This document shows, in pieces, positions 8,765-63,701 of a stretch of DNA of 64,000 nt. Below the pieces are notes generated by a model. That model had not been told where the DNA came from. It did no database searches and saw only the letters and a list, made by a program, of their open reading frames with translations. Position numbers and translations under genes: made by a program. Origin of the DNA: Escherichia phage EJP2; the sequence record OQ411014.1. One strand, given 5' to 3'. The first letter of the stretch is position 1; each line of letters begins with the position of its first letter.

Positions 8765-8779
8765 AATAAGAGACACAAC

Positions 8780-10159: not shown

Positions 10160-10167
10160 GACTTAAA

Positions 10168-10572: not shown

Positions 10573-10573
10573 T

Positions 10574-11092: not shown

Positions 11093-11101
11093 CAGAATTA
11101 C

Positions 11102-11191
11102 AGAAGGTTGGCAGAGCGGCTAAATGCACTCGCCTACTAAGCGAGCACTCGCTCCGGCGAGTCGAGGGTTCGAATCCCCCACCTTCTGCCA
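11102..11191 (+). tRNA. type II tRNA with unusual anticodon loop (apparent anticodon ACU; identity uncertain)
   Basis: Acceptor AGAAGGT/ACCTTCT, T-loop GGTTCGAATCC, long variable arm, encoded CCA; anticodon stem CTCGC/GCGAG with loop CTACTAA. Confidence 0.6.
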
Positions 11192-11204
11192 TATTAGGAT
11201 TTCA

Positions 11205-11594
11205 ATGATGACAATGCATGTGTACGATGAGTATGAAGAACGTATAAAACATGAAATCCAAAGTTATTTGGATGGTGTCAATAAAAAATTGAAATACAGT
11301 TCGGGTAAACGTTTTCAATCATTCACCCTAGAATACATGGATTGTGATGATTATAAACAACGCAGAATAACTATAAAAATTGCAGTTGATCCGAAGTTTA
11401 GTTGTGTGCATTCATCTTTACAGATAGATTCCACTTTTGGTGAAGATGAAGATCAATACTGGAGTGGTTTTTCCTATATACCAGAAAGTGAAGAAAAGCA
11501 CTTTCAAGAAACGTTACTCAATAAACAGATTTTAAGCTGGGATTTATTGCAGTACTTGATTGTTTTCTTCACTAAAATGCAAAATAAAGATTGA
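11205..11594 (+). CDS. FFQ-motif family protein
   Basis: ORF track 11124..11594 trimmed because track start lies inside the tRNA; ATG after AGGAT RBS; motif SEEKHFQETL. Confidence 0.5.
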   Translation: MMTMHVYDEYEERIKHEIQSYLDGVNKKLKYSSGKRFQSFTLEYMDCDDYKQRRITIKIAVDPKFSCVHSSLQIDSTFGEDEDQYWSGFSYIPESEEKHFQETLLNKQILSWDLLQYLIVFFTKMQNKD

Positions 11595-11641
11595 CTGTAC
11601 TGTAATGAACTAGTATTATATTACTTAGAGGATATAAAAAC

Positions 11642-12001
11642 ATGGCAGTTCAGGATTTTTCAAAATATGAAAAGTTTCTTAGAACATTTTTGAATTCCAA
11701 ATTAACATCTTACGATGCAGCACATAGTGAAGATAAACCAGCACGTCGCATTGTAAATGAAAATCAAGATTCATTTATTATTACTAATGATGAAATTATT
11801 TTTGAATCATTTGAAGATATAAAAAGACCTGCAAAACCAACTTTACAAGATATCGTAAATAGCTTAAATGCTAGATACATTACCTTTCAGTTGTGTAATG
11901 ATGAAGAAGATGAATTTCAGAAAAGTACAGTATATGAGAATATCTTTCCACATGAATTAAATTCTGTTATACTTGATATACTGAATAGTACTGAACAGTA
12001 G
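11642..12001 (+). CDS. FFQ-motif family protein
   Basis: ORF track; RBS AGAGGA; promoter TTGACT N17 TATTAT upstream; motif EEDEFQKST. Confidence 0.55.
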   Translation: MAVQDFSKYEKFLRTFLNSKLTSYDAAHSEDKPARRIVNENQDSFIITNDEIIFESFEDIKRPAKPTLQDIVNSLNARYITFQLCNDEEDEFQKSTVYENIFPHELNSVILDILNSTEQ

Positions 12002-12028
12002 ATATCAGTACTGATAAAAGGGTAACAC

Positions 12029-12238
12029 ATGAAAGCACGAGAACTTGCTAAAATTCTGATGGATAATCCCGAAGCTGAAGTTGTTTTGAATGATAATGAA
12101 TCAAATTATCAATTTTCACATATTGCCTGTACTGAAACTTTTTATAAAGATTCGTATGCTGAATCTTGGCAAAACGATGATAACAAAACTATTTCAGAAA
12201 ATGAAAAATTCAAAGTTGATGTAATAGTTTTGTACTGA
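12029..12238 (+). CDS. small protein, MKxxELxxIL N-terminal family
   Basis: ORF track; N-terminus MKARELAKILMDNPEAEVV shared with 13494, 14536 and 16293 genes. Confidence 0.5.
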   Translation: MKARELAKILMDNPEAEVVLNDNESNYQFSHIACTETFYKDSYAESWQNDDNKTISENEKFKVDVIVLY

Positions 12239-12445
12239 TATAATGAATTCCACAATCAGACGTATATGGTGTAAGTTACGTCGATGTAATCCAGAACAAG
12301 ATCTCTGGTACTCTAGGAAGTGGTGAATGTTAACCTAGACGGGTTTGATAATTGGACGATAGGCAATTATTACTTGACTAGCAGGTTTAAACTAGAGGTG
12401 ACAGTCCTTCACCAAACTGGAAAACCGGATGGACTTTTTAATTTA

Positions 12446-12540
<95 letters not shown>

Positions 12541-12607
12541 TATTGTTCCGAAAAGAATCGAGTTCTAAGATTTGTGATAACTTGTCTTAGTATAAGATTT
12601 TGTGTAA

Positions 12608-12686
<79 letters not shown>

Positions 12687-12695
12687 TCCAAATTC

Positions 12696-12769
12696 GGCCC
12701 TTTAGCTCAGTTGGTTAGAGCAGAGAACTCATAATTCTTTGGTCACTGGTTCGAGTCCAGTAGGGGCCA
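12696..12769 (+). tRNA. tRNA-Met (anticodon CAU; could equally be a lysidine-modified tRNA-Ile)
   Basis: Acceptor GGCCCTT/AGGGGCC, D-arm AGCTCAGTTGGTTAGAGC, anticodon loop CTCATAA, T-loop GGTTCGAGTCC; CCA not encoded. Confidence 0.8.
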
Positions 12770-25210: not shown

Positions 25211-25639
25211 ATGTCATTAGAAGCTAAAGTACATTTCAAAGATACGTGGATTGACTTAACCACCAATACAGTACTGAACAATGAATTCAGTACACAAACT
25301 CTTTCTGCTGATACAGTAGAAGAACTAACCAAAGATGTTAAGCAACTCATCTCATCACGTGTTGGCTCTGACGTATACAACGCTCAACGCCATATTACTG
25401 AATTGTTAGGTGTAGATGGTATTGAATACCAGATGCAGTACAAAATGAGCAAAGAAGAGATGTTTGACTTCATTTTGACTAACAATGTAGAAATCACACG
25501 AGATGGTGCTGTTTGGACTAAAACTGACGGTCGTAAAGTTCGTGTGAAATATTCTGTCAAGATCAATGATTTGAACTTAGCTGGATATGATTTAGAAGAA
25601 GCTATTCAGTACTATCACGATACGAGAGGTTCACGATGA
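25211..25639 (+). CDS. hypothetical protein (142 aa)
   Basis: ORF track; promoter TTGACA N16 TATAAT at ~25154. Confidence 0.55.
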   Translation: MSLEAKVHFKDTWIDLTTNTVLNNEFSTQTLSADTVEELTKDVKQLISSRVGSDVYNAQRHITELLGVDGIEYQMQYKMSKEEMFDFILTNNVEITRDGAVWTKTDGRKVRVKYSVKINDLNLAGYDLEEAIQYYHDTRGSR

Positions 25640-26028
25640 TTGTAGTTGCAGTATTACTTGGATTTGCTATAATGGCTATAACGTTACGTCTTAACGGTTA
25701 CTACAGAGACGAACGATTTCGCATTGAGCGAGAGAAAGAACGTGACTTGCACAAAGAAATATATAAAGCACATGAGCCAGTAAAATCACCATATGAAGTT
25801 CGATTGTCTTTGAGTAAGGACAAGAAGTTGGGTTATGCAGTGTATGACCACAGTGTGGGGCATTTTGCGAACTCAAATGGTGTTTTTATGTGGTTTCCTG
25901 ATTCGAAAAGTGCTATGATATTTCAAACAACACTGGAAGTGATTGGTTCATATCCACTAACGTACAAAGAATATCTAGATGTAATTCTTCCTGAAGTACT
26001 AAACCAAGAGAAAACTGAGGAAAAATAA
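25636..26028 (+). CDS. membrane-anchored protein (130 aa)
   Basis: ORF track; N-terminal TM; related to next gene (shared RWGYAIWD / KLGYAVYD segment). Confidence 0.5.
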   Translation: MIVVAVLLGFAIMAITLRLNGYYRDERFRIEREKERDLHKEIYKAHEPVKSPYEVRLSLSKDKKLGYAVYDHSVGHFANSNGVFMWFPDSKSAMIFQTTLEVIGSYPLTYKEYLDVILPEVLNQEKTEEK

Positions 26029-26379
26029 ATGTTAGCTGCAATCATCTGTACTGTTATCTTTTCTGCAACGTATTATATTTGCCAGAAGAAACGTACTGAA
26101 GCGTTTGAAACAGCACAAGCTAATCAACTAGAACTTGAGCGTTCTATGTTGATACAGGAGTCCAATGAGGGTAAAGAAGATTCCCCATTCCTCATTAAAC
26201 GTGTAGAATGTAATGGTCGCTGGGGTTATGCAATTTGGGATAAACGTATTTCTGATTATGCTAACATCTCTGACCAAAAGATTGAATTCTTCAGGACATT
26301 GGCTGCGGTTTATTGTATTATGAACGAAATAGAAACTTTTGAGAACTTTAAAGTTACTAAACCTATGCATACATTATAA
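26029..26379 (+). CDS. membrane-anchored protein (116 aa), paralog of previous
   Basis: ORF track; N-terminal TM. Confidence 0.5.
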   Translation: MLAAIICTVIFSATYYICQKKRTEAFETAQANQLELERSMLIQESNEGKEDSPFLIKRVECNGRWGYAIWDKRISDYANISDQKIEFFRTLAAVYCIMNEIETFENFKVTKPMHTL

Positions 26380-31279: not shown

Positions 31280-31705
31280 ATGTTCAAATATTGTTTCCGT
31301 ACGTATGTAGTACTGTTCTTAGTACCAGCACTGTACTTGATTACTGCACAACTTAGTAAAATCTTCGAAAGTCTTAGCTTTTTGAATTTTACTGCACCAG
31401 AACAGTACAAAATTCTATTGACAATAATGTACGTTTTTTCTTTCATATTGTCAGTACTGATCATTTTCAATTCAGGATGTGACTACCGAGAGTTTCATAT
31501 TTTCAGAAACTTCAAGAACGTAACGTACTCAAAGTTCTGGAGTTATATACTCGCAGTCCCTGTTGTATTGAATTTCCATATTGAGGGCTTCTCGTTCACA
31601 ACTTTTATGCTCTTCATTGAACCAATTGCAATCTATATGTACATCCATCAACATAACCGATTCGTATTGAGTCATAATCTAGTCCACGTAGAGGAACAAC
31701 CATGA
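31280..31705 (+). CDS. multi-pass membrane protein (141 aa)
   Basis: ORF track; several hydrophobic helices. Confidence 0.5.
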   Translation: MFKYCFRTYVVLFLVPALYLITAQLSKIFESLSFLNFTAPEQYKILLTIMYVFSFILSVLIIFNSGCDYREFHIFRNFKNVTYSKFWSYILAVPVVLNFHIEGFSFTTFMLFIEPIAIYMYIHQHNRFVLSHNLVHVEEQP

Positions 31706-35990: not shown

Positions 35991-36349
35991 GACTAATCCT
36001 GTTACTGATTTTGTTAGTAACTGCACAGACGATACCATCTGATTCATATATCGATATAAATCCAGCACGTGAGTTCATTATTTGTACAGACAGAGTAGAC
36101 AGTACTAAAAAGATTGAAGTCCTCTTCGATTCAAGTACTCCAGAATATGTAGTGACGAACAAAGTACAGTACAAATTCATTTCTCACGAAGTTATTGGGG
36201 ATGTAGATGTACTTCAATATAAGTTCGGTTCAAAGACTATGAATTTTGAATTTATTATGCAAGGTGATAAAGTATCTTCTATTCGATTGGAAGTACTTGG
36301 TGCTATCCCTGGTATGGAATTCATGGATGGGGAGTGTAAACTGCTATGA
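35987..36349 (+). CDS. secreted protein (signal peptide)
   Basis: ORF track; N-terminus MRLILLLILLVTAQT. Confidence 0.5.
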   Translation: MRLILLLILLVTAQTIPSDSYIDINPAREFIICTDRVDSTKKIEVLFDSSTPEYVVTNKVQYKFISHEVIGDVDVLQYKFGSKTMNFEFIMQGDKVSSIRLEVLGAIPGMEFMDGECKLL

Positions 36350-36690
36350 TTTCAGTACTGAATAGTATTAGTATTGTTGTTATGATTTTAGCCTGTACCT
36401 ACGCTATCCTAGCTGGGGTGCTCATCTTCTACAAGAAGACTAAGTTCTTGGGGTGGTTACAGATAAGTAAAACTGGCTATTGTTTTGTGTACGGAATAAG
36501 TGCCTTTTGTATATACAGGGATTTATTTTTAGGAGTACTTCCTCCTGATTTCAATGGGTACAACTTTAGTGCAGTGTTCTTATTGTTTTATATTGTACTT
36601 ATTGTGCTTGGTCTTTGTATACCGTATGTACTTATAGTTGGTGTTTCAAAGGTACTTGAGTACCGTAAACGTATTCCTGATGAGGATTGA
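36346..36690 (+). CDS. multi-pass membrane protein (114 aa)
   Basis: ORF track. Confidence 0.5.
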   Translation: MISVLNSISIVVMILACTYAILAGVLIFYKKTKFLGWLQISKTGYCFVYGISAFCIYRDLFLGVLPPDFNGYNFSAVFLLFYIVLIVLGLCIPYVLIVGVSKVLEYRKRIPDED

Positions 36691-36693
36691 TAA

Positions 36694-37023
36694 ATGAAGA
36701 TGGAAGACTTAGTAGAACTATTACAGCCGTACGCTACAGTACTATTTTTGATTGCTTCAATGTATACTGTTGTAACTCTAGTACTTGGATTCTTCAAGTA
36801 TCGAACACTAGCTAAACGCTTAGACGAGAACTTATGGCTCTCTGTTCCTAGTATCTTTAGTGTAGCTATTAGTATTGCAAACTATTTTATTGAAGATCGT
36901 ATGTTCGCTGCTATTATGTTATTATTTGTTTTGGTTGGGGTAACATTTGTAGGTACTATCTATGCAATGTGTAAAGGATTTGTGTACGTTCGTTCCAAGA
37001 TACCAGATCCAGAACAAGAATAA
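36694..37023 (+). CDS. multi-pass membrane protein (109 aa)
   Basis: ORF track; ends KIPDPEQE like previous gene (RIPDED). Confidence 0.5.
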   Translation: MKMEDLVELLQPYATVLFLIASMYTVVTLVLGFFKYRTLAKRLDENLWLSVPSIFSVAISIANYFIEDRMFAAIMLLFVLVGVTFVGTIYAMCKGFVYVRSKIPDPEQE

Positions 37024-39371: not shown

Positions 39372-39677
39372 ATGATTGGTGTAAATTGGAATATCATTGT
39401 ATTATGTGTACCGTTGTTATTCATGACTATTGCAATGCTTGTCCGAATGTGGAAGCCCAGCATCACTGAAAAGGATATCGGATTCAATCCGCTGATTCAG
39501 CTACTCGACAATGTTTTATGTATGTGGGTAGTACTGGCATTCGTTTGGCTCTATGTATTCAATGAAGATTATCTAAACGCCAGAGCAGCACTGTATTCAA
39601 TGATTGCACTTGGGTGGTTGTGGTTGACGTGCTTCACTATTCAAACTACAGTAAAGTTCTTTCAAAATAAGGGTTGA
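39372..39677 (+). CDS. membrane protein (101 aa)
   Basis: ORF track. Confidence 0.5.
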   Translation: MIGVNWNIIVLCVPLLFMTIAMLVRMWKPSITEKDIGFNPLIQLLDNVLCMWVVLAFVWLYVFNEDYLNARAALYSMIALGWLWLTCFTIQTTVKFFQNKG

Positions 39678-40377: not shown

Positions 40378-40710
40378 ATGCAACTAAGAGAAGTACCATT
40401 AGTCCTGCCAGTACTGGCAAATTGTGTAGTACTGTTGATATTTGTATACGCATTCTTTGAATGTTTGTGTCACTTATATGTAACAGGAAGATACAGAAAC
40501 AAGTTCTTTGAGTACTCAAGAGTAGACGTAATTGCTTCAACATATTGTACGTTACTGTCGAGTACTTTGGTATGTGCTTTCTGTGTTTATATATTACCGG
40601 ACACATATTTCGCATTGACTATGTGGGCTATGATATCTAATGGTGCTGCTTTGATGTACCTGATATACATCGTGGACTACTGGAATCTAAAAAGAACTAA
40701 ACGTATATGA
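40378..40710 (+). CDS. membrane protein (110 aa)
   Basis: ORF track. Confidence 0.5.
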   Translation: MQLREVPLVLPVLANCVVLLIFVYAFFECLCHLYVTGRYRNKFFEYSRVDVIASTYCTLLSSTLVCAFCVYILPDTYFALTMWAMISNGAALMYLIYIVDYWNLKRTKRI

Positions 40711-46749: not shown

Positions 46750-47082
46750 ATGTTAGTATATAATTACTTCAGTTTTATAATCTTCATGATGTTTTCGCTT
46801 TATATCATCATGGGTAACGTTGCGTGTTTCTTGAAGCATTATAAACTCGCAAACAGATGGTTTATGATGACAAATCCTTGCTTCCCGAATTTCTGTGCAT
46901 TTATATCTGGGATTTTAGTACTGGTAGATTTGTTCTTGGGTATCTCATCGGAACAACCATGCTTCTCTGCGGTAGCGATGACATTTTTGCTCGTTGCAAC
47001 AGTCCTGGGTATTGTGTTTATCATCTGTACAGTACTGATAGAGTTGATTAGTGATTGGCGACGAAAGTGGCCTGAACAATAA
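46750..47082 (+). CDS. multi-pass membrane protein (110 aa)
   Basis: ORF track. Confidence 0.5.
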   Translation: MLVYNYFSFIIFMMFSLYIIMGNVACFLKHYKLANRWFMMTNPCFPNFCAFISGILVLVDLFLGISSEQPCFSAVAMTFLLVATVLGIVFIICTVLIELISDWRRKWPEQ

Positions 47083-48860: not shown

Positions 48861-50039
48861 TTATGGTAAATCAAATTCCGTATATGAATATTTGTATACA
48901 CCATCTGGTCCACGACCTGAGTATCGTAATTTACCAGAAGTAGTTATATATGCTGAAGTAATATTACTAGTACTGAATATGTTAAACACTGACTTCATAT
49001 CATTCACTGTACCGTTACCGAATGGTATCAGGTTAAGTTCATTGCCGTTGACACCAGTACTCAATCTTCCTGAAGAATTTGCTCCACAACCATATGCATT
49101 TGATGGGCTAAGAGCAACGTAACCAGTATTACTAGTATAATAACTTAGTAAACCAATAAAATTCTCTGTAGTGGCTATTTCAGTAAAGACTCTAATATTG
49201 ACAGAACTATTCACTCCATTACCTAAGTTTCCAGCATTCTGGCTTCCCGCAGCATATAGATGTGTTTTACCAGTACCGTCACTGTACAATATTGTGAATG
49301 CTGATTCAGTTAGACCAATATCAAAAACACTAAGACCTGGGTCTGGTAGTGGTACTTGTGTTAGCACATTTATTCTTGTATCTGGATGACCAATACCGAG
49401 TTGACCAAATGAGTTTGAACCTGAAACCCAAACACTTAAATCATTTTTTAATATCAGTACTGATGAATTAACAAATTCAACTTTTTGAACATCTGATGTA
49501 AGTTTTGAGAAAGTAGTTAGTGCAAGATAATTACCAGTTGCTAGTTGGCCTTGGTTATTAAAACCGCTTCTATAAAGATCACCATTGTTCATTAATATAT
49601 ATAATGCATATACACCAGCATGAACAGATGTTATTTGATTAAGATTCCCTGTACCTATACCAGCTTCAATAAATGGGGTACAATCAGTATATGATGTCAC
49701 AACTTCAGTAGATGATGTATTGCCAGTTTGAAAGCTACGGCGACCAGTATATAATAATTTTCCATCCATAGTTTTAATGATAACAAAACTTGTGTTTGTA
49801 CACCAAACATCTTGAACATCATCTCTGATTAAAGTCCACTCTAGCTTTTGTTCTGTTGGCTTTCCATCCCCATAGATATAATTATCAACTGTTCCTCCAC
49901 CGATACCATACAATCTGTTATCATCATATAATACCATAAATGCCGGACGAGACGATGCATAAGGTACTAATATTTTTGTAATTTCAGGTAATGAAGGTGC
50001 TTTATTACCATAATTAAGCATTCGTACAAAAGGTAACAT
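48861..50039 (-). CDS. RCC1-like repeat (beta-propeller) protein (392 aa)
   Basis: ORF track; GGAGA RBS on minus strand; repeated G-x-N-x-x-G-Q/N-L-G motifs (GFNNQGQLATG, GSNSFGQLGIG, GSQNAGNLGNG). Confidence 0.65.
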   Translation of the reverse strand: MLPFVRMLNYGNKAPSLPEITKILVPYASSRPAFMVLYDDNRLYGIGGGTVDNYIYGDGKPTEQKLEWTLIRDDVQDVWCTNTSFVIIKTMDGKLLYTGRRSFQTGNTSSTEVVTSYTDCTPFIEAGIGTGNLNQITSVHAGVYALYILMNNGDLYRSGFNNQGQLATGNYLALTTFSKLTSDVQKVEFVNSSVLILKNDLSVWVSGSNSFGQLGIGHPDTRINVLTQVPLPDPGLSVFDIGLTESAFTILYSDGTGKTHLYAAGSQNAGNLGNGVNSSVNIRVFTEIATTENFIGLLSYYTSNTGYVALSPSNAYGCGANSSGRLSTGVNGNELNLIPFGNGTVNDMKSVFNIFSTSNITSAYITTSGKLRYSGRGPDGVYKYSYTEFDLP

Positions 50040-52273: not shown

Positions 52274-52597
52274 ATGTTTATTCTTTCTTTCCCACTGTTC
52301 GTTCTGCTTATCTGTTATATTGCAGTAGTAGCAGTAGGTTCTAAGTACAAAGATCTCCCTGAATATCTGAACATTGGTGACGGTCAAACAAATTCGCTAC
52401 GCTTTGTTCTGGGTGCAACGTTTGTATCATTAGGGTTCCAAATTCTTGGTCTGTTCTTTGCGTTTGCAATTAGTCTAGGACTGTTGTTTTCAACTATTGC
52501 TTCAGTCCTTGCGTGGTGGTGGTTGTTTGAAACATTCCAGTCTGGTAAGATCAAGATCTGGTACAAAGATGCTAAAGCATATTTCGATCAGGACTAA
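52274..52597 (+). CDS. multi-pass membrane protein (107 aa)
   Basis: ORF track; TAAGGAAA RBS. Confidence 0.5.
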   Translation: MFILSFPLFVLLICYIAVVAVGSKYKDLPEYLNIGDGQTNSLRFVLGATFVSLGFQILGLFFAFAISLGLLFSTIASVLAWWWLFETFQSGKIKIWYKDAKAYFDQD

Positions 52598-56936: not shown

Positions 56937-56990
56937 GGTTGACTTCGGTCAGCCTTTTTCGTATTATGTACTCATCGAAACGAAACGTAC
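56937..56990 (+). repeat. repeated promoter-leader cassette, copy 3
   Basis: Same cassette; explains identical spurious N-terminus MTSVSLFRIMYSSKR of track ORFs 54806 and 56939. Confidence 0.6.
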
Positions 56991-57004
56991 TAAGGATTAA
57001 GAAA

Positions 57005-57775
57005 ATGAACCGCACAGAAAAAGCAATGCAAATCGAAAAGAACTTCAACTCCATGATGGCTGCTCTTGAATGTCTTCTGGATACCCAAGCTAACTCAATC
57101 AACTCTCTGATTGTTTCTGGTAAAGGTGGTGTTGGTAAAACTTATAACGTAGACAAACGTCTGCAACAAGCAGATAACAACTACGAAATCGACTACAAAA
57201 AGATTTCTGGTAAAGTAACTACTATGGGTCTGTACGAAGCACTGTATCACTCTCGCCACGCTGCTTCAGTACTGTTACTCGATGACGTTGATATCTTCGG
57301 TGACGAAACTAATATCGACCTCCTTAAAGCAGTACTGGATACTTCCGATAAGCGTGTTGTTTCTTATGCAACTTCCGGTAAGCACTTGGACGCGATGGGT
57401 ATTCCTAAGCAGTTCGAGTTCCGTGGTAAAGTGATCTTCCTGACGAACAAAAACCTGTCACAGATTGCTAAAGGTAAAAGCAGTTTAGCACCACACATCG
57501 ATGCTCTGATTACTCGTAGTATCTTCGTGGACCTGCAACTGTTCAGCAACGAAGAAGTAATGATTCACATCGAAAACGTTATGTCCAAAACTAACATTCT
57601 GGAAAACCAGTTCGTTAGTCCAGAAGGTGCAGGTCACATTCTGAACTTCATGCTCAAGAATGAAGATCGTCTGCGTAGTCCTTCTCTGCGTATGCCAGTA
57701 CTGATCGCTGGCTTGTATAATAAGTTCCCGTTTGATTGGGAATCAATGGCTGAAAACATGTTCCTGGAGAAATAA
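57005..57775 (+). CDS. P-loop ATPase with deviant Walker A (ParA/MinD-like)
   Basis: ORF track 56939..57775 trimmed to ATG after TAAGGA RBS; Walker A SGKGGVGKT, Walker B-like VLLLDDVD; host-optimal codon usage. Confidence 0.6.
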   Translation: MNRTEKAMQIEKNFNSMMAALECLLDTQANSINSLIVSGKGGVGKTYNVDKRLQQADNNYEIDYKKISGKVTTMGLYEALYHSRHAASVLLLDDVDIFGDETNIDLLKAVLDTSDKRVVSYATSGKHLDAMGIPKQFEFRGKVIFLTNKNLSQIAKGKSSLAPHIDALITRSIFVDLQLFSNEEVMIHIENVMSKTNILENQFVSPEGAGHILNFMLKNEDRLRSPSLRMPVLIAGLYNKFPFDWESMAENMFLEK

Positions 57776-57776
57776 T

Positions 57777-58154
57777 ATGCAAATGTTCTTGACACCTTTT
57801 GGTTCAATCTGTTTAGTACTGGAAACTTTCCTATCTGTTGCAGTACTATGTATGCTGATTGGGAAGTTCTTTAATGCTCGCCCATTCAATAAGTACTATG
57901 ATGCAATTTATGATCAAAGTGAAAGTGAAGGCGTAGCTATCTTTCAATTGCTGGTGGCTATCGTAATCGCTACTATCCTTGCATGGATTGGTATCATCGG
58001 GGAATTCGAACTCCTAACAGAATTTTCAGTTGTAGCAGCTTCTGTGTGTACTGCCTTTACAATTCTGTACTTTACAATCTGTGCAGTGGATGCTATTATT
58101 CCTTATATCAAAAACGTGCACCACAAAATCGTAAAGAAAACCAACGGGGAATAA
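57777..58154 (+). CDS. multi-pass membrane protein, tandem family member 1
   Basis: ORF track 57732..58154 trimmed to ATG after GGAGA RBS; C-terminus HHKIVKK. Confidence 0.5.
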   Translation: MQMFLTPFGSICLVLETFLSVAVLCMLIGKFFNARPFNKYYDAIYDQSESEGVAIFQLLVAIVIATILAWIGIIGEFELLTEFSVVAASVCTAFTILYFTICAVDAIIPYIKNVHHKIVKKTNGE

Positions 58155-58155
58155 A

Positions 58156-58284
58156 ATGAAACCTGAGCAGTGGATTATTGATGACATGCGTTCTATGCGA
58201 GCAATTAAAGAACGCACATACGTACAAGAACAATATCTCGAACTCTTGATGTGGTACGTAAAAGTACTGAACTCTAAGGAATAA
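58156..58284 (+). CDS. small hypothetical protein (42 aa)
   Basis: Uninterrupted frame found by hand; GGGGA RBS. Confidence 0.35.
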   Translation: MKPEQWIIDDMRSMRAIKERTYVQEQYLELLMWYVKVLNSKE

Positions 58285-58286
58285 TT

Positions 58287-58634
58287 ATGTCTGCATATAC
58301 TATGATTACATGTTCTAATCTTGTTAGTATTGCGTACTTTATGTACGTCGCACTTATGGTTGTATGTTGGTACTTTCGCTTGTCAAAGGTTTATTGTGCA
58401 ATTGTCCCAAGTTCTGAATTTGGGATGTTCTTTATAAAATTCATGTTCATTGTTACATCAGTAACGAACTTCCTACAACTTATGGACTCCTTCTTCCCAG
58501 GTACTGGTGAGCCAGTAGCGTTTGCATTCTATATGAACGTTGCAATTGCCGGAGCTTTATTAGGTTGGTTCTTACTGTGTAAAGTAGTGAATTACCTTTT
58601 GTACATCCGAGCAGAACATATTCCACGGAGATAA
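58287..58634 (+). CDS. multi-pass membrane protein, tandem family member 2
   Basis: ORF track; TAAGGAA RBS. Confidence 0.5.
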   Translation: MSAYTMITCSNLVSIAYFMYVALMVVCWYFRLSKVYCAIVPSSEFGMFFIKFMFIVTSVTNFLQLMDSFFPGTGEPVAFAFYMNVAIAGALLGWFLLCKVVNYLLYIRAEHIPRR

Positions 58635-58637
58635 TAA

Positions 58638-58985
58638 ATGAATTCGTTCTTTTCTTCATTAGCAGCATTAGCAACAGAAAACACACTATACACCATCTTC
58701 ATTTGTACTCTATCATTATGTTATGGTGCAATGTGGTTCACTAATCATCGCTGGTTCCATGTTATTGATAAGAAGTTCGGTATAGTAGTATTTGCAATAC
58801 ATTTAGCAACACTAGTAGCAGTACTGACGTGGGTGATTGATACTCTAGCTCCAGGAAAGCCCGTTGGGATGGTTATCAACTTCATGTATTGGGTTGTGAT
58901 GGGTGTATTTGTTGGTGGTGTATTCATCTTTGAATATATGTCAAAGATTCGTAAAAAATATTTTATTGATAAAGGAAACTACTAA
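58638..58985 (+). CDS. multi-pass membrane protein, tandem family member 3
   Basis: ORF track. Confidence 0.5.
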   Translation: MNSFFSSLAALATENTLYTIFICTLSLCYGAMWFTNHRWFHVIDKKFGIVVFAIHLATLVAVLTWVIDTLAPGKPVGMVINFMYWVVMGVFVGGVFIFEYMSKIRKKYFIDKGNY

Positions 58986-59323
58986 TGTTTTATTTCTGTT
59001 CAGCAGTAATGCTATTGTGGATCTTCACATGGGTTAGTTGGATCTTCTGTCTAGATATCGCCAAATGGTTCGACAAACAACTCAAATACACTACATATGA
59101 CTTTGATGGTAAGATCTTTATCATAATCGTTTCGGTTTTTGCTGTCATCGCTGAAGTTCTTGCGTGTCTTGGTATCTTTGTGATGCACGGTAAGGACTCA
59201 ACGGTACTATTGGTAATTGCTACACTAATTACTAGTACTACCTTGATATCTTATGTAGTTTCGTTTATAATCTTTTGTGTCGTCCCCTGGAGGGATAAAC
59301 TAGCACGTAAGAAAGGATATTAG
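58985..59323 (+). CDS. multi-pass membrane protein, tandem family member 4
   Basis: ORF track. Confidence 0.5.
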   Translation: MFYFCSAVMLLWIFTWVSWIFCLDIAKWFDKQLKYTTYDFDGKIFIIIVSVFAVIAEVLACLGIFVMHGKDSTVLLVIATLITSTTLISYVVSFIIFCVVPWRDKLARKKGY

Positions 59324-59324
59324 T

Positions 59325-59681
59325 ATGGAATCATTATCACCGTTCGGGTTAGGTATTTGGTACATGAACGTAGTCATTTCAGTACTGATAGTGTTGTTGT
59401 TCGTACTGAAGTTCTTCCATGTATCACCGTTTTATAAGTTCTATGACTCAATGATAGAAACTGCTGTTATTGTTCCTATTCTGTCTGTGGTATATGTAAT
59501 ATGCACATTGATTCTAGTGCCATCAAATATCAATACGTTCTGGACTATTTTTGGGATGATGATCCCAACGTTGTATGATATTTGTTTAGTAGTTTTCTTA
59601 TTCATTTTAGGACTACTCGGTGCATATCAAGGCTTAGAGAATCTTCACAAGAAAATCGTTGATAAAAAGGTAAATCGATAA
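59325..59681 (+). CDS. multi-pass membrane protein, tandem family member 5
   Basis: ORF track; C-terminus LHKKIVDKK parallels member 1. Confidence 0.5.
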   Translation: MESLSPFGLGIWYMNVVISVLIVLLFVLKFFHVSPFYKFYDSMIETAVIVPILSVVYVICTLILVPSNINTFWTIFGMMIPTLYDICLVVFLFILGLLGAYQGLENLHKKIVDKKVNR

Positions 59682-60019
59682 TGAATATTTCACCTGACTT
59701 CATCGTACTAGTGAACTGCATGAGTATCTTTGTATGTGCATGTTCACTGTTCCTTGCTGTTATCTGGTTCTTTGACACTCCATTATGGAACCATTTTACC
59801 AGTACTGATGGATGTACCTTCATTGTTATTCCAGTGCAATTGTTCCTTACTGTTCTAGTACTTACAGGTCAGTACGCAACAACTGGTGGTAATATGAAGC
59901 CATACGAAATATTATTCCTAGGTATTCTTCTCGGAATGGCAGTAAACATCGGTTCAGTACTAGTAGCTTTAGTAATGTACTGGAGAACAAAGATGCTAGA
60001 ACGTCGTGATAGACGATAA
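59681..60019 (+). CDS. multi-pass membrane protein, tandem family member 6
   Basis: ORF track. Confidence 0.5.
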   Translation: MNISPDFIVLVNCMSIFVCACSLFLAVIWFFDTPLWNHFTSTDGCTFIVIPVQLFLTVLVLTGQYATTGGNMKPYEILFLGILLGMAVNIGSVLVALVMYWRTKMLERRDRR

Positions 60020-60174
60020 AAAATAGTTTCAAATAACCCAGTCCTAATGGCTGGGTTTTGCTCTTGAATGTATTAAATACATTTTTAGACAATATCTTTC
60101 TTGTCTAATGCTTAAAAAAACAAGAGGAAATAAATGATAAATTTTGACTTCTATTTGATTGTTGAGGACTGTAT

Positions 60175-60477
60175 ATGCTAATTTATATATTGACCTCGAT
60201 TGTTGTGTATTATCACGTATGTATACTATTAGGTACTTCGCTGTTGTTGCTAGACTATGCTTTGGATGTAAACTATCTCGAAGGTTATAGATGGATTGCG
60301 GACGAGCCTCTCTTTATAATGTTGTGGTTCGTTGAGATCCCAATGATTATAGGATATGCATTGTCTTTCTACATGAACAGTACTTTAATATTAAGCATCT
60401 TATGGGTTAGTACTTTCATAGTACTAATAACTATCTTATTAACGTTAATTGGATATTATATACATAAAAATGTATAA
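60175..60477 (+). CDS. multi-pass membrane protein (100 aa)
   Basis: ORF track; GAGGA RBS. Confidence 0.5.
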   Translation: MLIYILTSIVVYYHVCILLGTSLLLLDYALDVNYLEGYRWIADEPLFIMLWFVEIPMIIGYALSFYMNSTLILSILWVSTFIVLITILLTLIGYYIHKNV

Positions 60478-60481
60478 CATA

Positions 60482-60508
60482 AAGCCCCTCAATCGAGGGG
60501 CTTTTTTT
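60482..60508 (+). terminator. rho-independent terminator
   Basis: AAAGCCCCTC-AATC-GAGGGGCTTTTTTT hairpin; TTGACA promoter immediately downstream. Confidence 0.6.
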
Positions 60509-60565: not shown

Positions 60566-61243
60566 ATGCATAAGAAGACACAAAAGAAGAAATCCCGTAC
60601 ATTCAAACATTACTTACACAGTTTTAAGTTCTGGCGGTACAGGTCTAAGTTATATGAGAAGATGTATGATGTTGGGCGTGAACCTTGGCAGTACTATTCG
60701 ACTTACTCATTGGCAGTTCGAGAAAACGATTATGGCATTTCTAAGAAAGTACATAAGCTATTAGAAGCCTGTAATGTACGTTTGGACTATGCAGAAGTAC
60801 TACATGACTTTGTGTACATGTACATGGCAAAACCAAATGACCAAATGCACTACACAAGTGGTGAATTTATACACAGCAATACACAGTACGAATTCAATAT
60901 CATGGGGGATAAATCCTTTATGATCCGTGAGTACAATCGTGCTGATCCACAGGTGTATATTTCGTACAAGAAAGGTTCAGTAAAGGTAGAACTAAAGTAC
61001 GCATACAGTGCTAGACCTAAAAATAATGATGAGCTACAAGAAGCTCTCACTAAGCACGTACAATCTGAACTAACCGAAGCGGAGTTATTTCAGTACACAA
61101 TTATGTACGAACAGTTCGAGAGACTCATTTTCATGTTGAATCTGCTTAAACCTTTATGTATATTCAAAGATACTAAAGTAAATGCCTATTCGTTGTACAC
61201 ACTATTCAGTACTCACGAGACTTACAAAGGACAATTACAATGA
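60566..61243 (+). CDS. large FFQ-family paralog (225 aa)
   Basis: ORF track; GGAGA RBS; motif LTEAELFQYTIMYEQ. Confidence 0.6.
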   Translation: MHKKTQKKKSRTFKHYLHSFKFWRYRSKLYEKMYDVGREPWQYYSTYSLAVRENDYGISKKVHKLLEACNVRLDYAEVLHDFVYMYMAKPNDQMHYTSGEFIHSNTQYEFNIMGDKSFMIREYNRADPQVYISYKKGSVKVELKYAYSARPKNNDELQEALTKHVQSELTEAELFQYTIMYEQFERLIFMLNLLKPLCIFKDTKVNAYSLYTLFSTHETYKGQLQ

Positions 61244-61860
61244 AGCTAACAGCCTTACAGAAGCACTATCAACAAACGTTCAATTTCTACCGAACTCGAT
61301 ATCATCGCACACACGGAGCAACAATCTATCGCCCTCGTAGATTGGGACGTGTACGTAAAGGAGGTAAGTTCTTCAAAAAGATCTGTAACGAACTGAACAT
61401 CAAATGTCATGGACTGTACGGTTCTAATTCTAATGGCAAAGTAAACGTAAATGAAAACCTTCGCAGTGGTACACGTATTGATACGGTTGCTGGGAATATC
61501 TACACATCCGAAAGCCGGATGTATTTCCCTAAAGGTAAGTCCGAAGATTCTCGCTATGTATTGTGTTATGATTCTTGTGAGTCACCGCTTAGTATCGAAG
61601 ATATCATGGTACTTGATTATAAGTTCGAATACCAGGATGATTCGGTCACTAGTGAAGAACTAACCGACATCGTTCAGAAGCACCTAAAAGGTACTCTAAC
61701 GGAGGCAGAACTATTTGTAGCCCTACTATACCATGAAGAGGTAATGCAGCTTCTGGCTGGTGCTGAGATGCTTTATAAGCTATTTGGATACGTACACAAA
61801 GAGCAAGTATCACTCATTGACATTTATGTTTCAGTACTGAAGAGTGAGCAATCTAAATGA
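61240..61860 (+). CDS. large FFQ-family paralog (206 aa)
   Basis: ORF track; motif LTEAELFVALLYHEE. Confidence 0.6.
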   Translation: MKLTALQKHYQQTFNFYRTRYHRTHGATIYRPRRLGRVRKGGKFFKKICNELNIKCHGLYGSNSNGKVNVNENLRSGTRIDTVAGNIYTSESRMYFPKGKSEDSRYVLCYDSCESPLSIEDIMVLDYKFEYQDDSVTSEELTDIVQKHLKGTLTEAELFVALLYHEEVMQLLAGAEMLYKLFGYVHKEQVSLIDIYVSVLKSEQSK

Positions 61861-62531
61861 AGATGAACCGTTTTGGGAATCACTACAACAAGTACTTCAA
61901 ACATATGCACTACGTACAAGCAGAATCTACTACTTCTGCGTATGTATATAACCGTAATGCAACCAGACGGACTCATATGCGTAGGTCGTTTTCTGCTGTA
62001 CTGAAGAAGTTCATGCGAGCTAAAGGATTTATGTTCAAAAAAGATACACGGTCTGGATGGTCTTGGGAGAACCATAACACATCACCATCATCTGTGTATA
62101 ATATAGGTCTAACATATTTCAGTTTTATGATTGATGATATTCCTTGTTTGGTTTCGTATTATACATATCCATATACCTACAATGTCACTGTATATGTGAA
62201 TTATATATCAGTCGATGATGATGAAAAATTACTGAAACAAAACGTTATTCAAGTTGGTATATCAAATGAAGTATACGCCGCCCAGGATAAAGAGTTGGAG
62301 GATATTCTTAGGAAAAAGTTACCAAAGTACCATGAAGTACTGACGGATGAAAAGATGTTTCAGTACAGTACAATGATACCGAATGCAGATGTATATTGGA
62401 AAGCTAACAATATATATCATAATATTACACAAATGATAATGAGTAGTTATCATGAGAACATACATCACCCATACAATAAAAAGAATAAAACAATCATTCA
62501 TTTATTGAATTGTATCTTGAAGGAATTATAA
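61857..62531 (+). CDS. large FFQ-family paralog (224 aa)
   Basis: ORF track; motif LTDEKMFQYSTM. Confidence 0.6.
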   Translation: MKMNRFGNHYNKYFKHMHYVQAESTTSAYVYNRNATRRTHMRRSFSAVLKKFMRAKGFMFKKDTRSGWSWENHNTSPSSVYNIGLTYFSFMIDDIPCLVSYYTYPYTYNVTVYVNYISVDDDEKLLKQNVIQVGISNEVYAAQDKELEDILRKKLPKYHEVLTDEKMFQYSTMIPNADVYWKANNIYHNITQMIMSSYHENIHHPYNKKNKTIIHLLNCILKEL

Positions 62532-62570: not shown

Positions 62571-63701
62571 TTAAAATGGTAAATCTATTTGTTTGGTAAT
62601 CGTCATACCTAAAGGTATTGAACACATTGACATATTTTTCCCATTTAGATTGGAAGGCGGCTGTCCGTTCATCCATATATTGGTATCGTCATAGAATGTA
62701 CTCCACCACGTAGAACCACCTTCTATGTGAATATTTTGATTAAAATCAGCGAATTGGCATTCTTGAAAAACTTCAAAAAACGGAATAGATGATAAACTAC
62801 TACTAGTAAATGGTGTATATCCTGTTGCCATTAACTTATTCGTATCTGAATTTACTAAAAAGATAACATTACCTGCATTGTATGGTACATATTTGGGATA
62901 TAAATTACTCATATCACCAATAGGGAAGTTAATATTAAATATTTTACTATGCGTACCCGTTCCTGAAAGTGTAGTACCAGTTACGTATATTTTATTATCA
63001 GTTGTACCCATAATAAACCCAATACCAAACCCAGAACAAAATGTAATGTCGTATGAAACATTATCAAATAGTTGAACAAACGTAGTTACATCACCTGCTG
63101 GACTTTGTATTTGTAAACTATTGTTTGCACCTGCTCCCCAAACAGTTCCGTTACTTTTCACTTTGAATAAAGTATCTCCTATATAGTGACCATATATGCT
63201 ATCAACTTCAGTATCAAGTTCTGTCCATTGTGACACAAAGTTTTTATGCCCTAAACCTAAACACCCATTACGATTAAGCCCTCTACCGTACAATGTACCA
63301 TCATTCATCAATACAAATACTGTATATCCACATAACATTTTTTTAATTTGTGTAACGTCGATACCATTAAAATACCCACTCCAATCTGCATAACCTTGTT
63401 GCATTGTCGAAGAATTTGTAAATGCTTGTGTTGGCCCTGAACCATATATTTTACCACCTTTAATAATGACTGAAAACGATCCCAACCACACATCTTGAAC
63501 ATCCTGAGCAATTGTTTTCAATTCACCATATGCAGTTAAGGGAGTACTTTGCCCTGAACTATATGTTGAATCTTCTCCGTGTGCATATAATGTTCCATCT
63601 TGTGTTAGAATCATTTCTAAGTAAACAGCACTTACACTTTTCTTTATTTTATTAACTTCTATTTTATTTCCGTACTTCAACATCCTTGCAAAAGGTAACA
63701 T
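62571..63701 (-). CDS. RCC1-like repeat (beta-propeller) protein (376 aa), paralog of 48861..50039
   Basis: ORF track; shared N-terminus MLPFARMLKYGNK vs MLPFVRMLNYGNK; motif GLNRNGCLGLG; GGAGA RBS on minus strand. Confidence 0.65.
   Translation of the reverse strand: MLPFARMLKYGNKIEVNKIKKSVSAVYLEMILTQDGTLYAHGEDSTYSSGQSTPLTAYGELKTIAQDVQDVWLGSFSVIIKGGKIYGSGPTQAFTNSSTMQQGYADWSGYFNGIDVTQIKKMLCGYTVFVLMNDGTLYGRGLNRNGCLGLGHKNFVSQWTELDTEVDSIYGHYIGDTLFKVKSNGTVWGAGANNSLQIQSPAGDVTTFVQLFDNVSYDITFCSGFGIGFIMGTTDNKIYVTGTTLSGTGTHSKIFNINFPIGDMSNLYPKYVPYNAGNVIFLVNSDTNKLMATGYTPFTSSSLSSIPFFEVFQECQFADFNQNIHIEGGSTWWSTFYDDTNIWMNGQPPSNLNGKNMSMCSIPLGMTITKQIDLPF

What the first reader, a model, noticed from the sequence alone, without database searches (positions are those of the whole stretch)
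57005..60019. ParA/MinD-like ATPase followed by a tandem array of six paralogous small membrane proteins
The ATPase has the deviant Walker A SGKGGVGKT plus a Walker B-like VLLLDDVD, and host-optimal codons. It is immediately followed by six consecutive ~112-125 aa multi-pass membrane proteins with related C-termini (HHKIVKK, LHKKIVDKK, KIRKKYF). A positioning ATPase coupled to a diversified membrane-protein array is an unusual operon, and could be a membrane-localised exclusion or injection-control system.
Basis: partly seen in the sequence, partly recalled or inferred. Interest (0 to 1): 0.6.

Follow-up and report, generated by a model that had tools for sequence, protein, structure and literature searches.

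The report
AAA+ ATPase plus membrane-protein gene family
In jumbo coliphage EJP2, an early operon joins a conserved T4 NrdC.10-type AAA+ ATPase (not a ParA/MinD positioning ATPase) to a fast-evolving tandem family of small three-pass inner-membrane proteins; both are real but of unknown function, and they swap between phages independently of each other.

Summary
The window is Escherichia jumbo phage EJP2. The ATPase motifs exist, and it is the most codon-optimised of 91 ORFs.

The six membrane ORFs each have three predicted transmembrane segments, N-terminus outside, with a basic cytoplasmic tail. Profile-profile comparison shows they are paralogues (M6 most weakly), in at least three subfamilies.
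- a conserved 42-aa soluble ORF between the first and second membrane genes;
- a seventh, unrelated three-pass ORF;
- at least three dispersed family copies elsewhere in the window.

The ATPase-then-array order recurs in every RaK2-like phage examined, but not in T4-like or other homologue-bearing phages. The array is hypervariable (22-39% identity where the ATPase is 87-91%), and the two parts recombine independently.

My best reading is an early accessory cassette. The membrane proteins probably act at the host envelope in phage-phage or phage-host conflict, and the ATPase is probably a separable partner. Function is untested, and interest is modest.

The parts
56937..56967 (+). Composite hairpin/promoter element (GGTTGAC-TTCG-GTCAGCC, T-run, then TATTAT). 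The -35 TTGACT lies in the stem, the spacer is 17 nt, and AAGGA sits 8 nt before the ATG at 57005. PeSL-like.
   Evidence: (9 copies on the + strand, 0 expected). PeSL concept from PMC4122927 and PMC2839356.
57005..57775 (+). AAA+ ATPase of the T4 NrdC.10 family (256 aa), lacking the T4-type N-terminal domain. Invariant: Walker A G39/G42/G44/K45, Walker B D93/D94, sensor-1 N148, R171, and lid R229.
57777..58154 (+). M1, three-pass membrane protein, subfamily B (125 aa).
58156..58284 (+). s42: conserved 42-aa soluble ORF (phrog_27942). It is the only stretch of the array conserved at DNA level across genera.
58287..58634 (+). M2, three-pass membrane protein, subfamily A (115 aa).
58638..58985 (+). 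M3, three-pass membrane protein, subfamily A (115 aa).
58985..59323 (+). M4, three-pass membrane protein, subfamily C (112 aa).
59325..59681 (+). M5, three-pass membrane protein, subfamily B (118 aa).
59681..60019 (+). M6, three-pass membrane protein. A divergent member: it hits the A-type HMM at 3e-7, and hhalign to A gives 80%.
60035..60057 (+). Weak terminator-like hairpin after M6.
60175..60477 (+). M7, a seventh three-pass ORF (100 aa). It has an orthologue at the end of the Hallingskeid array but is not detectably related to M1-M6.
60481..60504 (+). Strong intrinsic-terminator-like hairpin (10 pairs plus a T-run) that closes the unit. It is 94% conserved in Hallingskeid and is followed by a new promoter-like site at 60510.
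36346..36690 (+). Dispersed subfamily-A paralogue (114 aa).
   Evidence: A HMM 6e-22.
36694..37023 (+). Dispersed subfamily-A paralogue (109 aa).
   Evidence: 95%; 8e-11.
46750..47082 (+). Dispersed subfamily-A paralogue (110 aa).
   Evidence: 3e-20.

Best explanation
This is one early transcription unit of the RaK2-like jumbo phage EJP2. A sigma-70-type promoter sits inside a repeated hairpin element at 56937-56967, and a strong terminator closes the unit at 60481-60504.

The unit joins two evolutionarily separable modules:
1. A highly conserved, highly codon-optimised AAA+ ATPase of the T4 NrdC.10 family. All catalytic motifs are intact, so it is probably an active oligomeric ATPase. Weak sequence resemblance to DnaC/Hda/Orc-type proteins and the gene context of one distant homologue suggest it most likely acts on DNA or protein complexes in the cytoplasm.
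2. A clade-specific multigene family of small inner-membrane proteins with three transmembrane helices, the N-terminus outside, and a basic juxtamembrane cytoplasmic tail ([YW]-[RH]-x-K-h). EJP2 has six detectable paralogues here from subfamilies A, B and C, one unrelated three-pass ORF, and a conserved 42-aa soluble protein.

Shown: gene anatomy, homology, topology bias, conserved gene order within the clade, hypervariability, and independent recombination of the two modules.

Inferred: the membrane proteins are inserted into the host inner membrane early in infection. There they act as accessory 'conflict' factors, for example in superinfection exclusion or in neutralising membrane-acting host defences, with each subfamily having its own target. 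Co-transcription with the ATPase would then reflect shared early timing rather than an obligate physical machine.
For: Identity: the ATPase is 100% identical to an Escherichia phage EJP2 protein.

AAA+ / NrdC.10 assignment:
- phrog_1250 at E=2e-95, matching profile positions 78-326 only.
- tblastn finds 1,309 phage records, including annotated nrdC.10 genes of RB14, phage 25 and nt-1 at 38-41% identity.
- Invariant catalytic columns in 24 homologues.

Membrane family:
- hhalign 90-94% between subfamilies, against at most 1.1% for reversed controls.
- HMM classification.
- K+R counts over 52 members: N-terminus 20, loop 1 156, loop 2 26, C-tail 246.
- No Pfam domain or source name among hits, and only 31 representatives among 1.84 billion proteins.

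Operon: promoter, ribosome-binding site, 1-3 nt gene junctions or overlaps, and terminators.

Clade-wide order: ATPase followed by a three-pass array in Turkey5, CRJP21, Hallingskeid, Munch, RaK2, Kae01, a G17-like contig, GAP32, XbC2 and BF. The subfamily order A, then C, then B, then D is shared by four of them.

Hypervariability and modularity:
- ATPase 87-91% identical versus membrane proteins 22-39% identical to their best counterpart.
- EJP2-Turkey5 DNA homology stops at 57777.
- CRJP21 versus the G17-like contig: arrays 95-100% identical, ATPase 59%.

Separability of the ATPase:
- No array next to homologues in RB14, L012, L013 or L019.
- One distant homologue lies between an ssDNA-binding protein and DNA polymerase A in a replication module.

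Early timing: RpoD-like promoters mark the presumed early region in CBB (PMC5259590).
Against: - No experiment or expression data exist for any gene here, so the conflict-factor role is inferred only from early promoter type, membrane location, copy-number variation and sequence hypervariability.
- ATPase-array adjacency persists in all ten RaK2-like genomes or contigs examined, at about 50% ATPase identity and with varying upstream neighbours. The junction is often only 1-2 nt. This is more than I would expect for unrelated neighbours and leaves a functional link open.
- The conserved order of subfamilies could equally indicate a hetero-oligomeric complex.
- The AAA+ clade is unresolved. Sequence profiles lean towards DnaC/Hda/Orc-like proteins, while structure leans towards MoxR and sigma-54 activators.
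Confidence: 0.45

Rival explanations
1. The ATPase and the three-pass proteins form one machine. A hexameric MoxR-like AAA+ docks on the conserved basic C-terminal tails and assembles or remodels a hetero-oligomeric inner-membrane complex of subfamilies A, B, C and D. In the RaK2-like clade the membrane partners would replace the N-terminal domain that T4 NrdC.10 carries.
For: - Adjacency is conserved in all ten RaK2-like genomes or contigs examined despite about 50% ATPase divergence and different upstream genes.
- ATPase-to-first-membrane-gene junctions are 1-2 nt in EJP2, Hallingskeid, GAP32 and BF.
- The N-terminal domain is absent relative to phrog_1250 and RB14 NrdC.10.
- Subfamily order is conserved.
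- The nearest structures are NorQ and CbbQ, and NorQ matures a membrane enzyme.
Against: - The two parts assort independently: near-identical arrays with 59%-identical ATPases, and 91%-identical ATPases with 22-29%-identical arrays.
- Family copies lie far from any ATPase gene (36346, 36694, 46750).
- The ATPase family is present in more than 1,200 phage records outside the RaK2-like group, and the four such loci examined have no array.
- Codon adaptation differs sharply between the ATPase and the membrane genes.
- No VWA partner of the MoxR type is present in the operon.
Confidence: 0.2
2. The three-pass proteins are holin or antiholin-like lysis-timing proteins. They share the class I holin architecture: about 105-125 aa, three transmembrane segments, N-out/C-in, basic C-terminal tail.
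For: - Architecture and topology bias fit.
- The word 'holin' appears in neither the CBB nor the EJP2 paper, and CBB's predicted endolysin carries an N-terminal transmembrane domain.
- M6 gives a weak Phage_holin_2 match at E=0.24.
Against: - There is no significant similarity to any Pfam or PHROG holin family.
- The promoter is sigma-70-type, in a presumed early region.
- There are 4-10 tandem copies plus dispersed ones, with extreme divergence between close relatives.
- No endolysin or spanin was found among the eight flanking ORFs scanned between 54300 and 63700.
Confidence: 0.1
3. The array is hyperplastic-region filler: duplicated ORFs under weak selection that are maintained only as generic membrane peptides, with no specific function.
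For: - Very low pairwise identity and variable copy number.
- The region is flanked by PeSL-like shuffling elements.
- The family is very small and clade-restricted.
Against: - All ORFs are intact, with conserved length, topology and tail motif across genera.
- Subfamily order is conserved in four lineages.
- Arrays are 95-100% identical between some phages, which implies constraint.
Confidence: 0.1
4. One reading: a ParA/MinD-type positioning ATPase coupled to the membrane array.
For: EJP2's P-loop, SGKGGVGKT, is literally identical to the MinD-type motif.
Against: - K40 is not conserved.
- CbiA matches 1 of 24 members at E=0.008.
- No SIMIBI protein appears among the listed structural neighbours.
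- The protein has an AAA+ lid domain with a sensor-2 arginine.
Confidence: 0.01

Closest known systems
T4 NrdC.10 (phrog_1250), a conserved AAA-type ORF of T4-like phages with unknown function
   Same: Homologous over the whole AAA+ core and lid: 38-41% identity over about 96% of the EJP2 protein, E about 1e-54, and phrog_1250 at E=2e-95. The AAA motif match was already noted in PMC1524935. The RaK2 and GAP32 annotations cite nrdC.10.
   Different: The EJP2/RaK2-clade protein lacks the N-terminal domain of about 70 aa (it matches profile positions 78-326; RB14 NrdC.10 is 322 aa). Only in this clade is it followed by the three-pass array. RB14's downstream genes are a seg-like endonuclease and soluble nrdC.9/.8.
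MoxR-class AAA+ chaperones (CbbQ, NorQ)
   Different: Sequence identity is only 14-15%. No VWA-domain partner is encoded in the operon. Sequence profiles lean instead towards DnaC/Hda/Orc-type proteins. The Walker B is DD rather than DE.
ParA/MinD (SIMIBI) ATPases
   Same: The eight-residue P-loop string GKGGVGKT.
   Different: The fold differs (AAA+ core with helical lid), the signature lysine is not conserved, and there is no Pfam CbiA/ParA membership.
Small early phage inner-membrane proteins for superinfection exclusion (T4 Imm and Sp, from my own knowledge)
   Same: Small size, inner-membrane location, early-type promoter, and accessory, variable character.
   Different: There is no detectable homology, and no PHROG or Pfam match carries that annotation. 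This family has three transmembrane segments and occurs as multi-subfamily tandem arrays.
Class I holins (lambda S type, from my own knowledge)
   Same: About 105-125 aa, three transmembrane segments, N-out/C-in, basic C-terminal tail.
   Different: No significant sequence match (best E=0.24). Multi-copy, early-type promoter, and not next to an endolysin.
PeSL composite promoter-terminator motifs of T4-like myoviruses (PMC2839356, PMC4122927)
   Same: A repeated sigma-70-like promoter fused to a stem-loop, on one strand, in a variable early region, lying at homology breakpoints between related phages.
   Different: The stem sequence differs (GGTTGAC-TTCG-GTCAGCC), and the -35 hexamer lies inside the stem. 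As far as my searches show, PeSLs have not been described for RaK2-like phages.

Membership tests
ParA/MinD (SIMIBI, deviant Walker A) | Deviant Walker A KGGxxGK[ST] with a conserved signature lysine. | tested here: not met
   The motif string is present in EJP2, but K40 is A, P, S, G or R in most of 24 homologues. Only G39, G42, G44 and K45 are invariant.
ParA/MinD (SIMIBI, deviant Walker A) | SIMIBI fold and homology to the CbiA/ParA/MinD families. | tested here: not met
AAA+ superfamily | Walker A, Walker B, sensor-1 polar residue, arginine finger and sensor-2 arginine. | tested here: met
   Invariant K45, D93/D94, N148, R171 and R229.
AAA+ superfamily | Alpha-beta-alpha core followed by a C-terminal helical lid, with structural neighbours that are AAA+ proteins. 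| tested here: met
T4 NrdC.10 family (phrog_1250) | Full-length sequence homology to annotated nrdC.10 genes. | tested here: met
   phrog_1250 at E=2e-95. tblastn to nrdC.10 of RB14, phage 25 and nt-1 gives 38-41% identity.
T4 NrdC.10 family (phrog_1250) | The N-terminal domain of about 70 aa present in the T4-type protein. | tested here: not met
   The match starts at profile position 78. The protein is 256 aa against 322 aa in RB14.
MoxR AAA+ subfamily | A partner protein with a VWA domain encoded alongside. | tested here: not met
   No VWA hit in the eight operon ORFs scanned or the eight flanking ORFs scanned.
MoxR AAA+ subfamily | Sequence membership (AAA_3 / AAA_5 type). | tested here: inconclusive
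   AAA_5 matches 5 of 24 members at best E=7e-4, below threshold. Structure ranks CbbQ and NorQ first.
Class I holins | Three transmembrane segments, N-out/C-in, charged C-terminus, about 100 aa. | tested here: met
Class I holins | Homology to a known holin family, or adjacency to an endolysin. | tested here: not met
   Best match is Phage_holin_2 at E=0.24. No PHROG lysis category. The scanned neighbours carry no lysozyme domain.
Class I holins | Late expression and membrane-permeabilising activity. | not testable with these tools
   Only a sigma-70-type promoter-like site is seen.
T4 Imm/Sp-type superinfection exclusion proteins | Sequence homology to Imm, Sp or another annotated exclusion protein. 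| tested here: not met
   No such PHROG or Pfam hit. The only PHROG with a function category is phrog_16874 'membrane protein' at E=0.087.
T4 Imm/Sp-type superinfection exclusion proteins | Blocks DNA entry by superinfecting phage. | not testable with these tools
   Needs plating or efficiency-of-plating assays.
PeSL promoter-terminator cassettes | A repeated sigma-70-like promoter fused to a stem-loop, strand-biased, at mosaic junctions. | tested here: met
   Nine copies on the + strand against 0 expected. TTGACT-17-TATTAT. Copies sit at homology breakpoints with Turkey5 and Hallingskeid.

The most novel reading that the evidence does not exclude
In RaK2-like jumbo phages, the N-terminally truncated NrdC.10-type AAA+ has been recruited to a set of diversified three-pass membrane proteins via their conserved basic tails. 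Together they would form an ATP-driven inner-membrane system that controls DNA entry (superinfection exclusion) or counters membrane-acting defences. That would be a phage-encoded AAA+/membrane-adaptor system with no described counterpart.
Probability: 0.15. Interest if true: 0.6.

Novelty: new member of a known kind. Interest (0 to 1): 0.3.

Why it matters
- It corrects two annotations. The gene called 'thioredoxin' in EJP2, which that paper invokes as a ribonucleotide-reductase helper, is an AAA+ ATPase. It is also not a ParA/MinD protein.
- It defines an unannotated, clade-restricted family of small three-pass membrane proteins in RaK2-like jumbo phages. These phages are being developed for therapy, and the family shows the hallmarks of conflict genes. 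If it governs superinfection exclusion or defence evasion, it would bear on cocktail design and host range.
- The NrdC.10 family occurs in more than 1,300 phage records, and this member is the most codon-optimised gene in 64 kb of early region. Yet it has no known function, which makes it a reasonable target for study.

Tried and rejected
- Single-sequence PDB search with the ATPase found nothing. The profile search gave only weak AAA+ P-loop matches.
- blastp among the seven membrane ORFs linked only M1 and M5. Relatedness of the others needed profiles built from five other phages.
- M7, 39372-39677, 52274-52597 and 31280-31705 could not be tied to the family, and 40378-40710 only marginally (A HMM 5e-3, close to the decoy level).
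- PADLOC gave only sub-threshold noise: Avs4 P-loop at 0.007 and KwaA at 0.009.
- The M1 AlphaFold2 model was low confidence (pLDDT 65). I used it only to corroborate helices and did not fold-search it.
- I tested whether s42 could be a non-coding RNA. The ORF is intact in all nine phages compared, and in the seven of equal length variation is highest at third codon positions (23/13/33 variable columns), so it is coding.
- Literature searches found no functional work on nrdC.10, on paralogous RaK2 membrane proteins, or in the jumbo-phage comparative review.
- I considered a MoxR assignment but did not adopt it, because no VWA partner is present and the sequence evidence conflicts.
Full report
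**Source and anatomy.** The ATPase ORF is 100% identical to a protein of Escherichia phage EJP2, a 349-kb jumbo phage, where it is named 'thioredoxin'. The genes lie on the + strand as follows:

| Feature | Coordinates | Size |
|---|---|---|
| ATPase | 57005-57775 | 256 aa |
| M1 | 57777-58154 | 125 aa |
| s42 | 58156-58284 | 42 aa |
| M2 | 58287-58634 | 115 aa |
| M3 | 58638-58985 | 115 aa |
| M4 | 58985-59323 | 112 aa |
| M5 | 59325-59681 | 118 aa |
| M6 | 59681-60019 | 112 aa |
| M7 | 60175-60477 | 100 aa |

From the ATPase to M6, gene junctions are 1-3 nt or overlap. A promoter-like site, TTGACT-17-TATTAT, lies at 56939-56967, and AAGGA sits 8 nt before the ATG. A weak hairpin follows M6 (60035-60057). 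A strong terminator-like hairpin with a T-run follows M7 (60481-60504), and a new promoter-like site starts at 60510. The sequence therefore supports one transcription unit from about 56968 to 60504.

**The ATPase is AAA+, not ParA/MinD.** EJP2 does carry SGKGGVGKT and VLLLDDVD. In an alignment of 24 homologues, however, the Walker A is GxxGxGK[ST]. G39, G42, G44 and K45 are invariant, while K40, the 'signature' lysine of a deviant Walker A, is A, P, S, G or R in most members. The invariant columns include a full AAA+ catalytic set: D93/D94 (Walker B), N148 (sensor 1), R171 (box VII arginine) and R229 in the lid (sensor 2).

- Pfam scans of all 24 members match AAA_16 in 20, AAA_22 in 14, AAA_14 in 11 and AAA in 9. 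CbiA/ParA matches one, at E=0.008.
- NCBIfam and PDB profile searches give weak hits to Orc1/Cdc6, Hda, DnaA, DnaC/DnaI-type loaders, TnsC and ClpC.
- The AlphaFold2 model is confident (pLDDT 92.1, pTM 0.86). It shows a five-stranded core, an insertion between helix 3 and strand 4, and a four-helix lid.
- The top 50 Foldseek hits are all AAA+ or closely related ASCE NTPases: NorQ, RuvB, CbbQ, ClpA, dynein, DnaA, ORC.
- No SIMIBI protein appears in either list.

I leave the exact AAA+ clade open, because sequence and structure point to different neighbours.

**Family of the ATPase.** PHROGs places it in phrog_1250 (E=2e-95), matching only profile positions 78-326. tblastn finds 1,309 phage records. 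Most are T4-like phages at 38-41% identity over about 96% of the query, and they include genes annotated nrdC.10 in RB14, Aeromonas phage 25 and Vibrio phage nt-1. The RaK2 and GAP32 records cite nrdC.10 themselves.

An AAA match for T4 nrdC.10 was noted in 2006, without a function (PMC1524935). I found no later functional work.

Many records propagate the name 'thioredoxin', evidently from the gene name nrdC.10. The EJP2 paper lists one thioredoxin, EJP02_485, as a ribonucleotide-reductase helper (PMC10213699). This is probably the same gene. The RaK2-clade protein lacks the N-terminal domain of about 70 aa found in the T4 type (322 aa in RB14).

With my own list of E. coli optimal codons, the ATPase scores Fop 0.724. 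That is the highest of 91 + strand ORFs of at least 100 aa in the window (mean 0.497, sd 0.075). The membrane genes score 0.37-0.53.

**The membrane proteins are paralogues.** All seven have three hydrophobic segments. blastp links only M1 and M5 (27.5% over 120 aa, E=5e-8).

I collected small membrane ORFs from syntenic loci of ten related phages. phmmer clustering gave these groups:
- subfamily A: 25 members, including M2, M3 and the dispersed EJP2 copies 36346 and 46750;
- subfamily B: 11 members, including M1 and M5;
- subfamily C: four members, with which I grouped M4 and its Hallingskeid orthologue (the link, E=1.2e-3, was just above the clustering cut-off);
- subfamily D.

hhalign between subfamily alignments gives A-B 90%, A-C 93%, B-C 92.5%, B-D 94%, A versus M6 80% and A versus 36694 95%, mostly over about 100 columns. 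The same comparisons against reversed sequences never exceed 1.1%. HMM cross-hits agree: M6 to A at 3e-7 and M1 to A at 2e-5, with the best decoy at 9e-3. M7 has an orthologue in Hallingskeid but no detectable link to the others.

Shared motifs are an aromatic pair at the end of TM1 ([FW][FY]x) and [YW]-[RH]-x-K-h just after TM3. Over 52 members with three predicted segments, K+R counts are 20 (N-terminus), 156 (loop 1), 26 (loop 2) and 246 (C-tail). By the positive-inside rule this means N-out/C-in.

An AlphaFold2 model of M1 is all-helical but low confidence (pLDDT 65).

The family has no Pfam domain and no source name among its hits. Only 31 representatives among 1.84 billion proteins match, all 100-128 aa and full length.

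**Conserved arrangement within one clade only.** An NrdC.10-type ATPase is followed by 4-10 three-pass ORFs in all of these: Turkey5, CRJP21, Hallingskeid, Munch, RaK2, fENko-Kae01, a G17-like contig, GAP32, XbC2 and BF. Upstream neighbours differ between them. In RaK2 and XbC2 a soluble ORF is interposed between the ATPase and the array, and in GAP32, XbC2 and BF a roughly 260-aa soluble ORF interrupts it. The subfamily order A..A, C, B..B, D is shared by Turkey5, CRJP21, Hallingskeid and RaK2. EJP2 reads B, s42, A, A, C, B, A-like, M7.

Outside this clade the ATPase stands without such an array:
- In RB14 it is followed by a seg-like endonuclease and soluble ORFs.
- In contigs L012, L013 and L019 it is followed by soluble ORFs or opposite-strand genes.
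- One distant homologue with an N-terminal extension lies between an Enc34-type ssDNA-binding protein and DNA polymerase A, near a PD-(D/E)XK nuclease and a primase-polymerase.

**Two modules that evolve separately.**
- At DNA level, only the ATPase (83-91% identity) matches relatives by megablast.
- With sensitive blastn, the only match inside the array is s42.
- EJP2-Turkey5 homology is 97-99% upstream and 90% across the ATPase, and it stops at 57777. No further match appears until a short stretch near 63640.
- At protein level, the ATPase is 91% and 87% identical to Turkey5 and Hallingskeid. M1-M7 are 22-39% identical to their best counterparts, and s42 is 79% identical to Hallingskeid's.
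- The reverse also occurs. CRJP21 and a G17-like contig have arrays that are 95-100% identical but ATPases that are only 59% identical.

Adjacency is thus kept while the alleles assort freely. This argues against specific co-adaptation between an ATPase allele and particular membrane paralogues. It does not exclude a generic interaction through the conserved tail.

**Regulatory element.** The promoter lies in a repeated motif, GGTTGACTTCGGTCAGCCTTTTT. It occurs nine times in the window with up to 3 mismatches, all on the + strand, against none expected. Copies sit at homology breakpoints with Turkey5 and Hallingskeid. This fits the PeSL composite promoter-terminator cassettes described for T4-like myoviruses, which mediate modular shuffling in hyperplastic regions (PMC2839356, PMC4122927). 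In phage CBB, RpoD-like promoters are concentrated in the presumed early, host-takeover region (PMC5259590). Early expression here is an inference.

**Interpretation.**
- Shown: an early-type operon containing a catalytically intact NrdC.10-family AAA+ and a clade-specific, hypervariable, tandemly expanded family of N-out/C-in three-pass membrane proteins.
- Inferred (about 0.45): the membrane proteins are accessory conflict factors at the host inner membrane, acting in superinfection exclusion or against membrane-acting defences. The ATPase would be a separable, abundant early enzyme, more likely acting on DNA or protein complexes.
- Rival, coupled AAA+/membrane machine (about 0.2): supported by the persistent adjacency, the tight junctions, the loss of the N-domain and the MoxR-like structural neighbours.
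- Rival, holin-like lysis proteins (about 0.1): supported by architecture alone.
- Rival, near-neutral filler (about 0.1).
- Rival, the ParA/MinD model: refuted.

None of these has experimental support.

**Verdict.** No evidence yet makes this a 'system'. The ATPase belongs to a known but uncharacterised family, and the membrane family is new to the databases but of an ordinary kind for jumbo-phage accessory regions. Interest is modest at 0.3.

Noticed in passing
window 58156-58284: A 42-aa soluble ORF (MKPEQWIIDDMR...WYVKVLNSKE, phrog_27942 at E=5e-26) sits inside the hypervariable array and is the only part of it conserved at DNA level across genera (72-84%). The ORF is intact in all nine phages compared, and variation is highest at third codon positions (23/13/33 variable columns by codon position in the seven of equal length). 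It is present in 35 phage records, none of them an Escherichia phage. In GAP32, CBB and BF it precedes an array of a different, single-pass membrane family. In XaC1 it stands alone.
   Followed up: partly
window 39672, 44043, 47094, 53238, 53973, 54804, 56200, 56643, 56937 (+ strand): A repeated hairpin/promoter element, GGTTGACTTCGGTCAGCCTTTTT followed by TATTAT, occurs in nine copies against 0 expected. The -35 hexamer lies inside the stem. Copies coincide with homology breakpoints against Turkey5 and Hallingskeid. It resembles the PeSL cassettes of T4-like phages.
   Followed up: partly
window 57005-57775: The gene is named 'thioredoxin' in the EJP2 record, and its homologues carry that name in many T4-like records, apparently carried over from the gene name nrdC.10. 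The EJP2 paper counts a thioredoxin, EJP02_485, as a ribonucleotide-reductase helper. The protein is an AAA+ ATPase with no thioredoxin fold.
   Followed up: yes
window 60566-61243, 61240-61860, 61857-62531: Three tandem soluble ORFs of about 205-225 aa with basic N-termini lie directly downstream of the operon. The first two are detectably related (phmmer E about 6e-6), and all three share a central motif of the type 'LTEAELF'. None has a Pfam match. Turkey5, CRJP21 and the G17-like contig carry a single ORF of similar size (213-220 aa) at the same position; homology was not tested.
   Followed up: partly
window 25636-26028 and 26029-26379: Two adjacent proteins with a single N-terminal transmembrane segment. 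The second clusters (phmmer E<1e-3) with the four-gene arrays that follow s42 in GAP32, CBB and BF. This is a second small membrane-protein family shared across the clade.
   Followed up: partly
window 62571-63701 (-) and 48861-50039 (-): These are minus-strand ORFs of 376 and 392 aa in an otherwise + strand region. They share an MLPF.RML.YGNK start, and the first carries RCC1-like repeats (PF25390 at 1.6e-10, RCC1_2 at 2e-5). Related phages have runs of 3-5 such genes next to the array. In CRJP21 the label 'regulator of chromosome condensation' has been wrongly spread onto the ATPase and several membrane ORFs.
   Followed up: partly
L002 (CRJP21) 7067-7840 vs L011 5001-5771: Two Asteriusvirus-type genomes are 93-99% identical in DNA across the flanks and the array but carry ATPase alleles only 59% identical. 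This looks like an allelic replacement confined to the ATPase gene.
   Followed up: partly
window 682-12769: Six tRNA genes (Thr-TGT, Ser-TGA, Arg-TCT, Ser-ACT, Ser-GCT, Met-CAT), which equals the total reported for EJP2. The Ser tRNA with anticodon ACT (11102-11191) is unusual and may be a miscall or a pseudo-tRNA.
   Followed up: no
L019 6702-10786: In a metagenomic phage contig, an NrdC.10-type ATPase homologue is followed, after two soluble ORFs, by roughly 15 tandem soluble ORFs of about 70-85 aa, many sharing a motif such as 'G.F.Y'. This is another tandem small-protein expansion, unrelated to the three-pass family.
   Followed up: no
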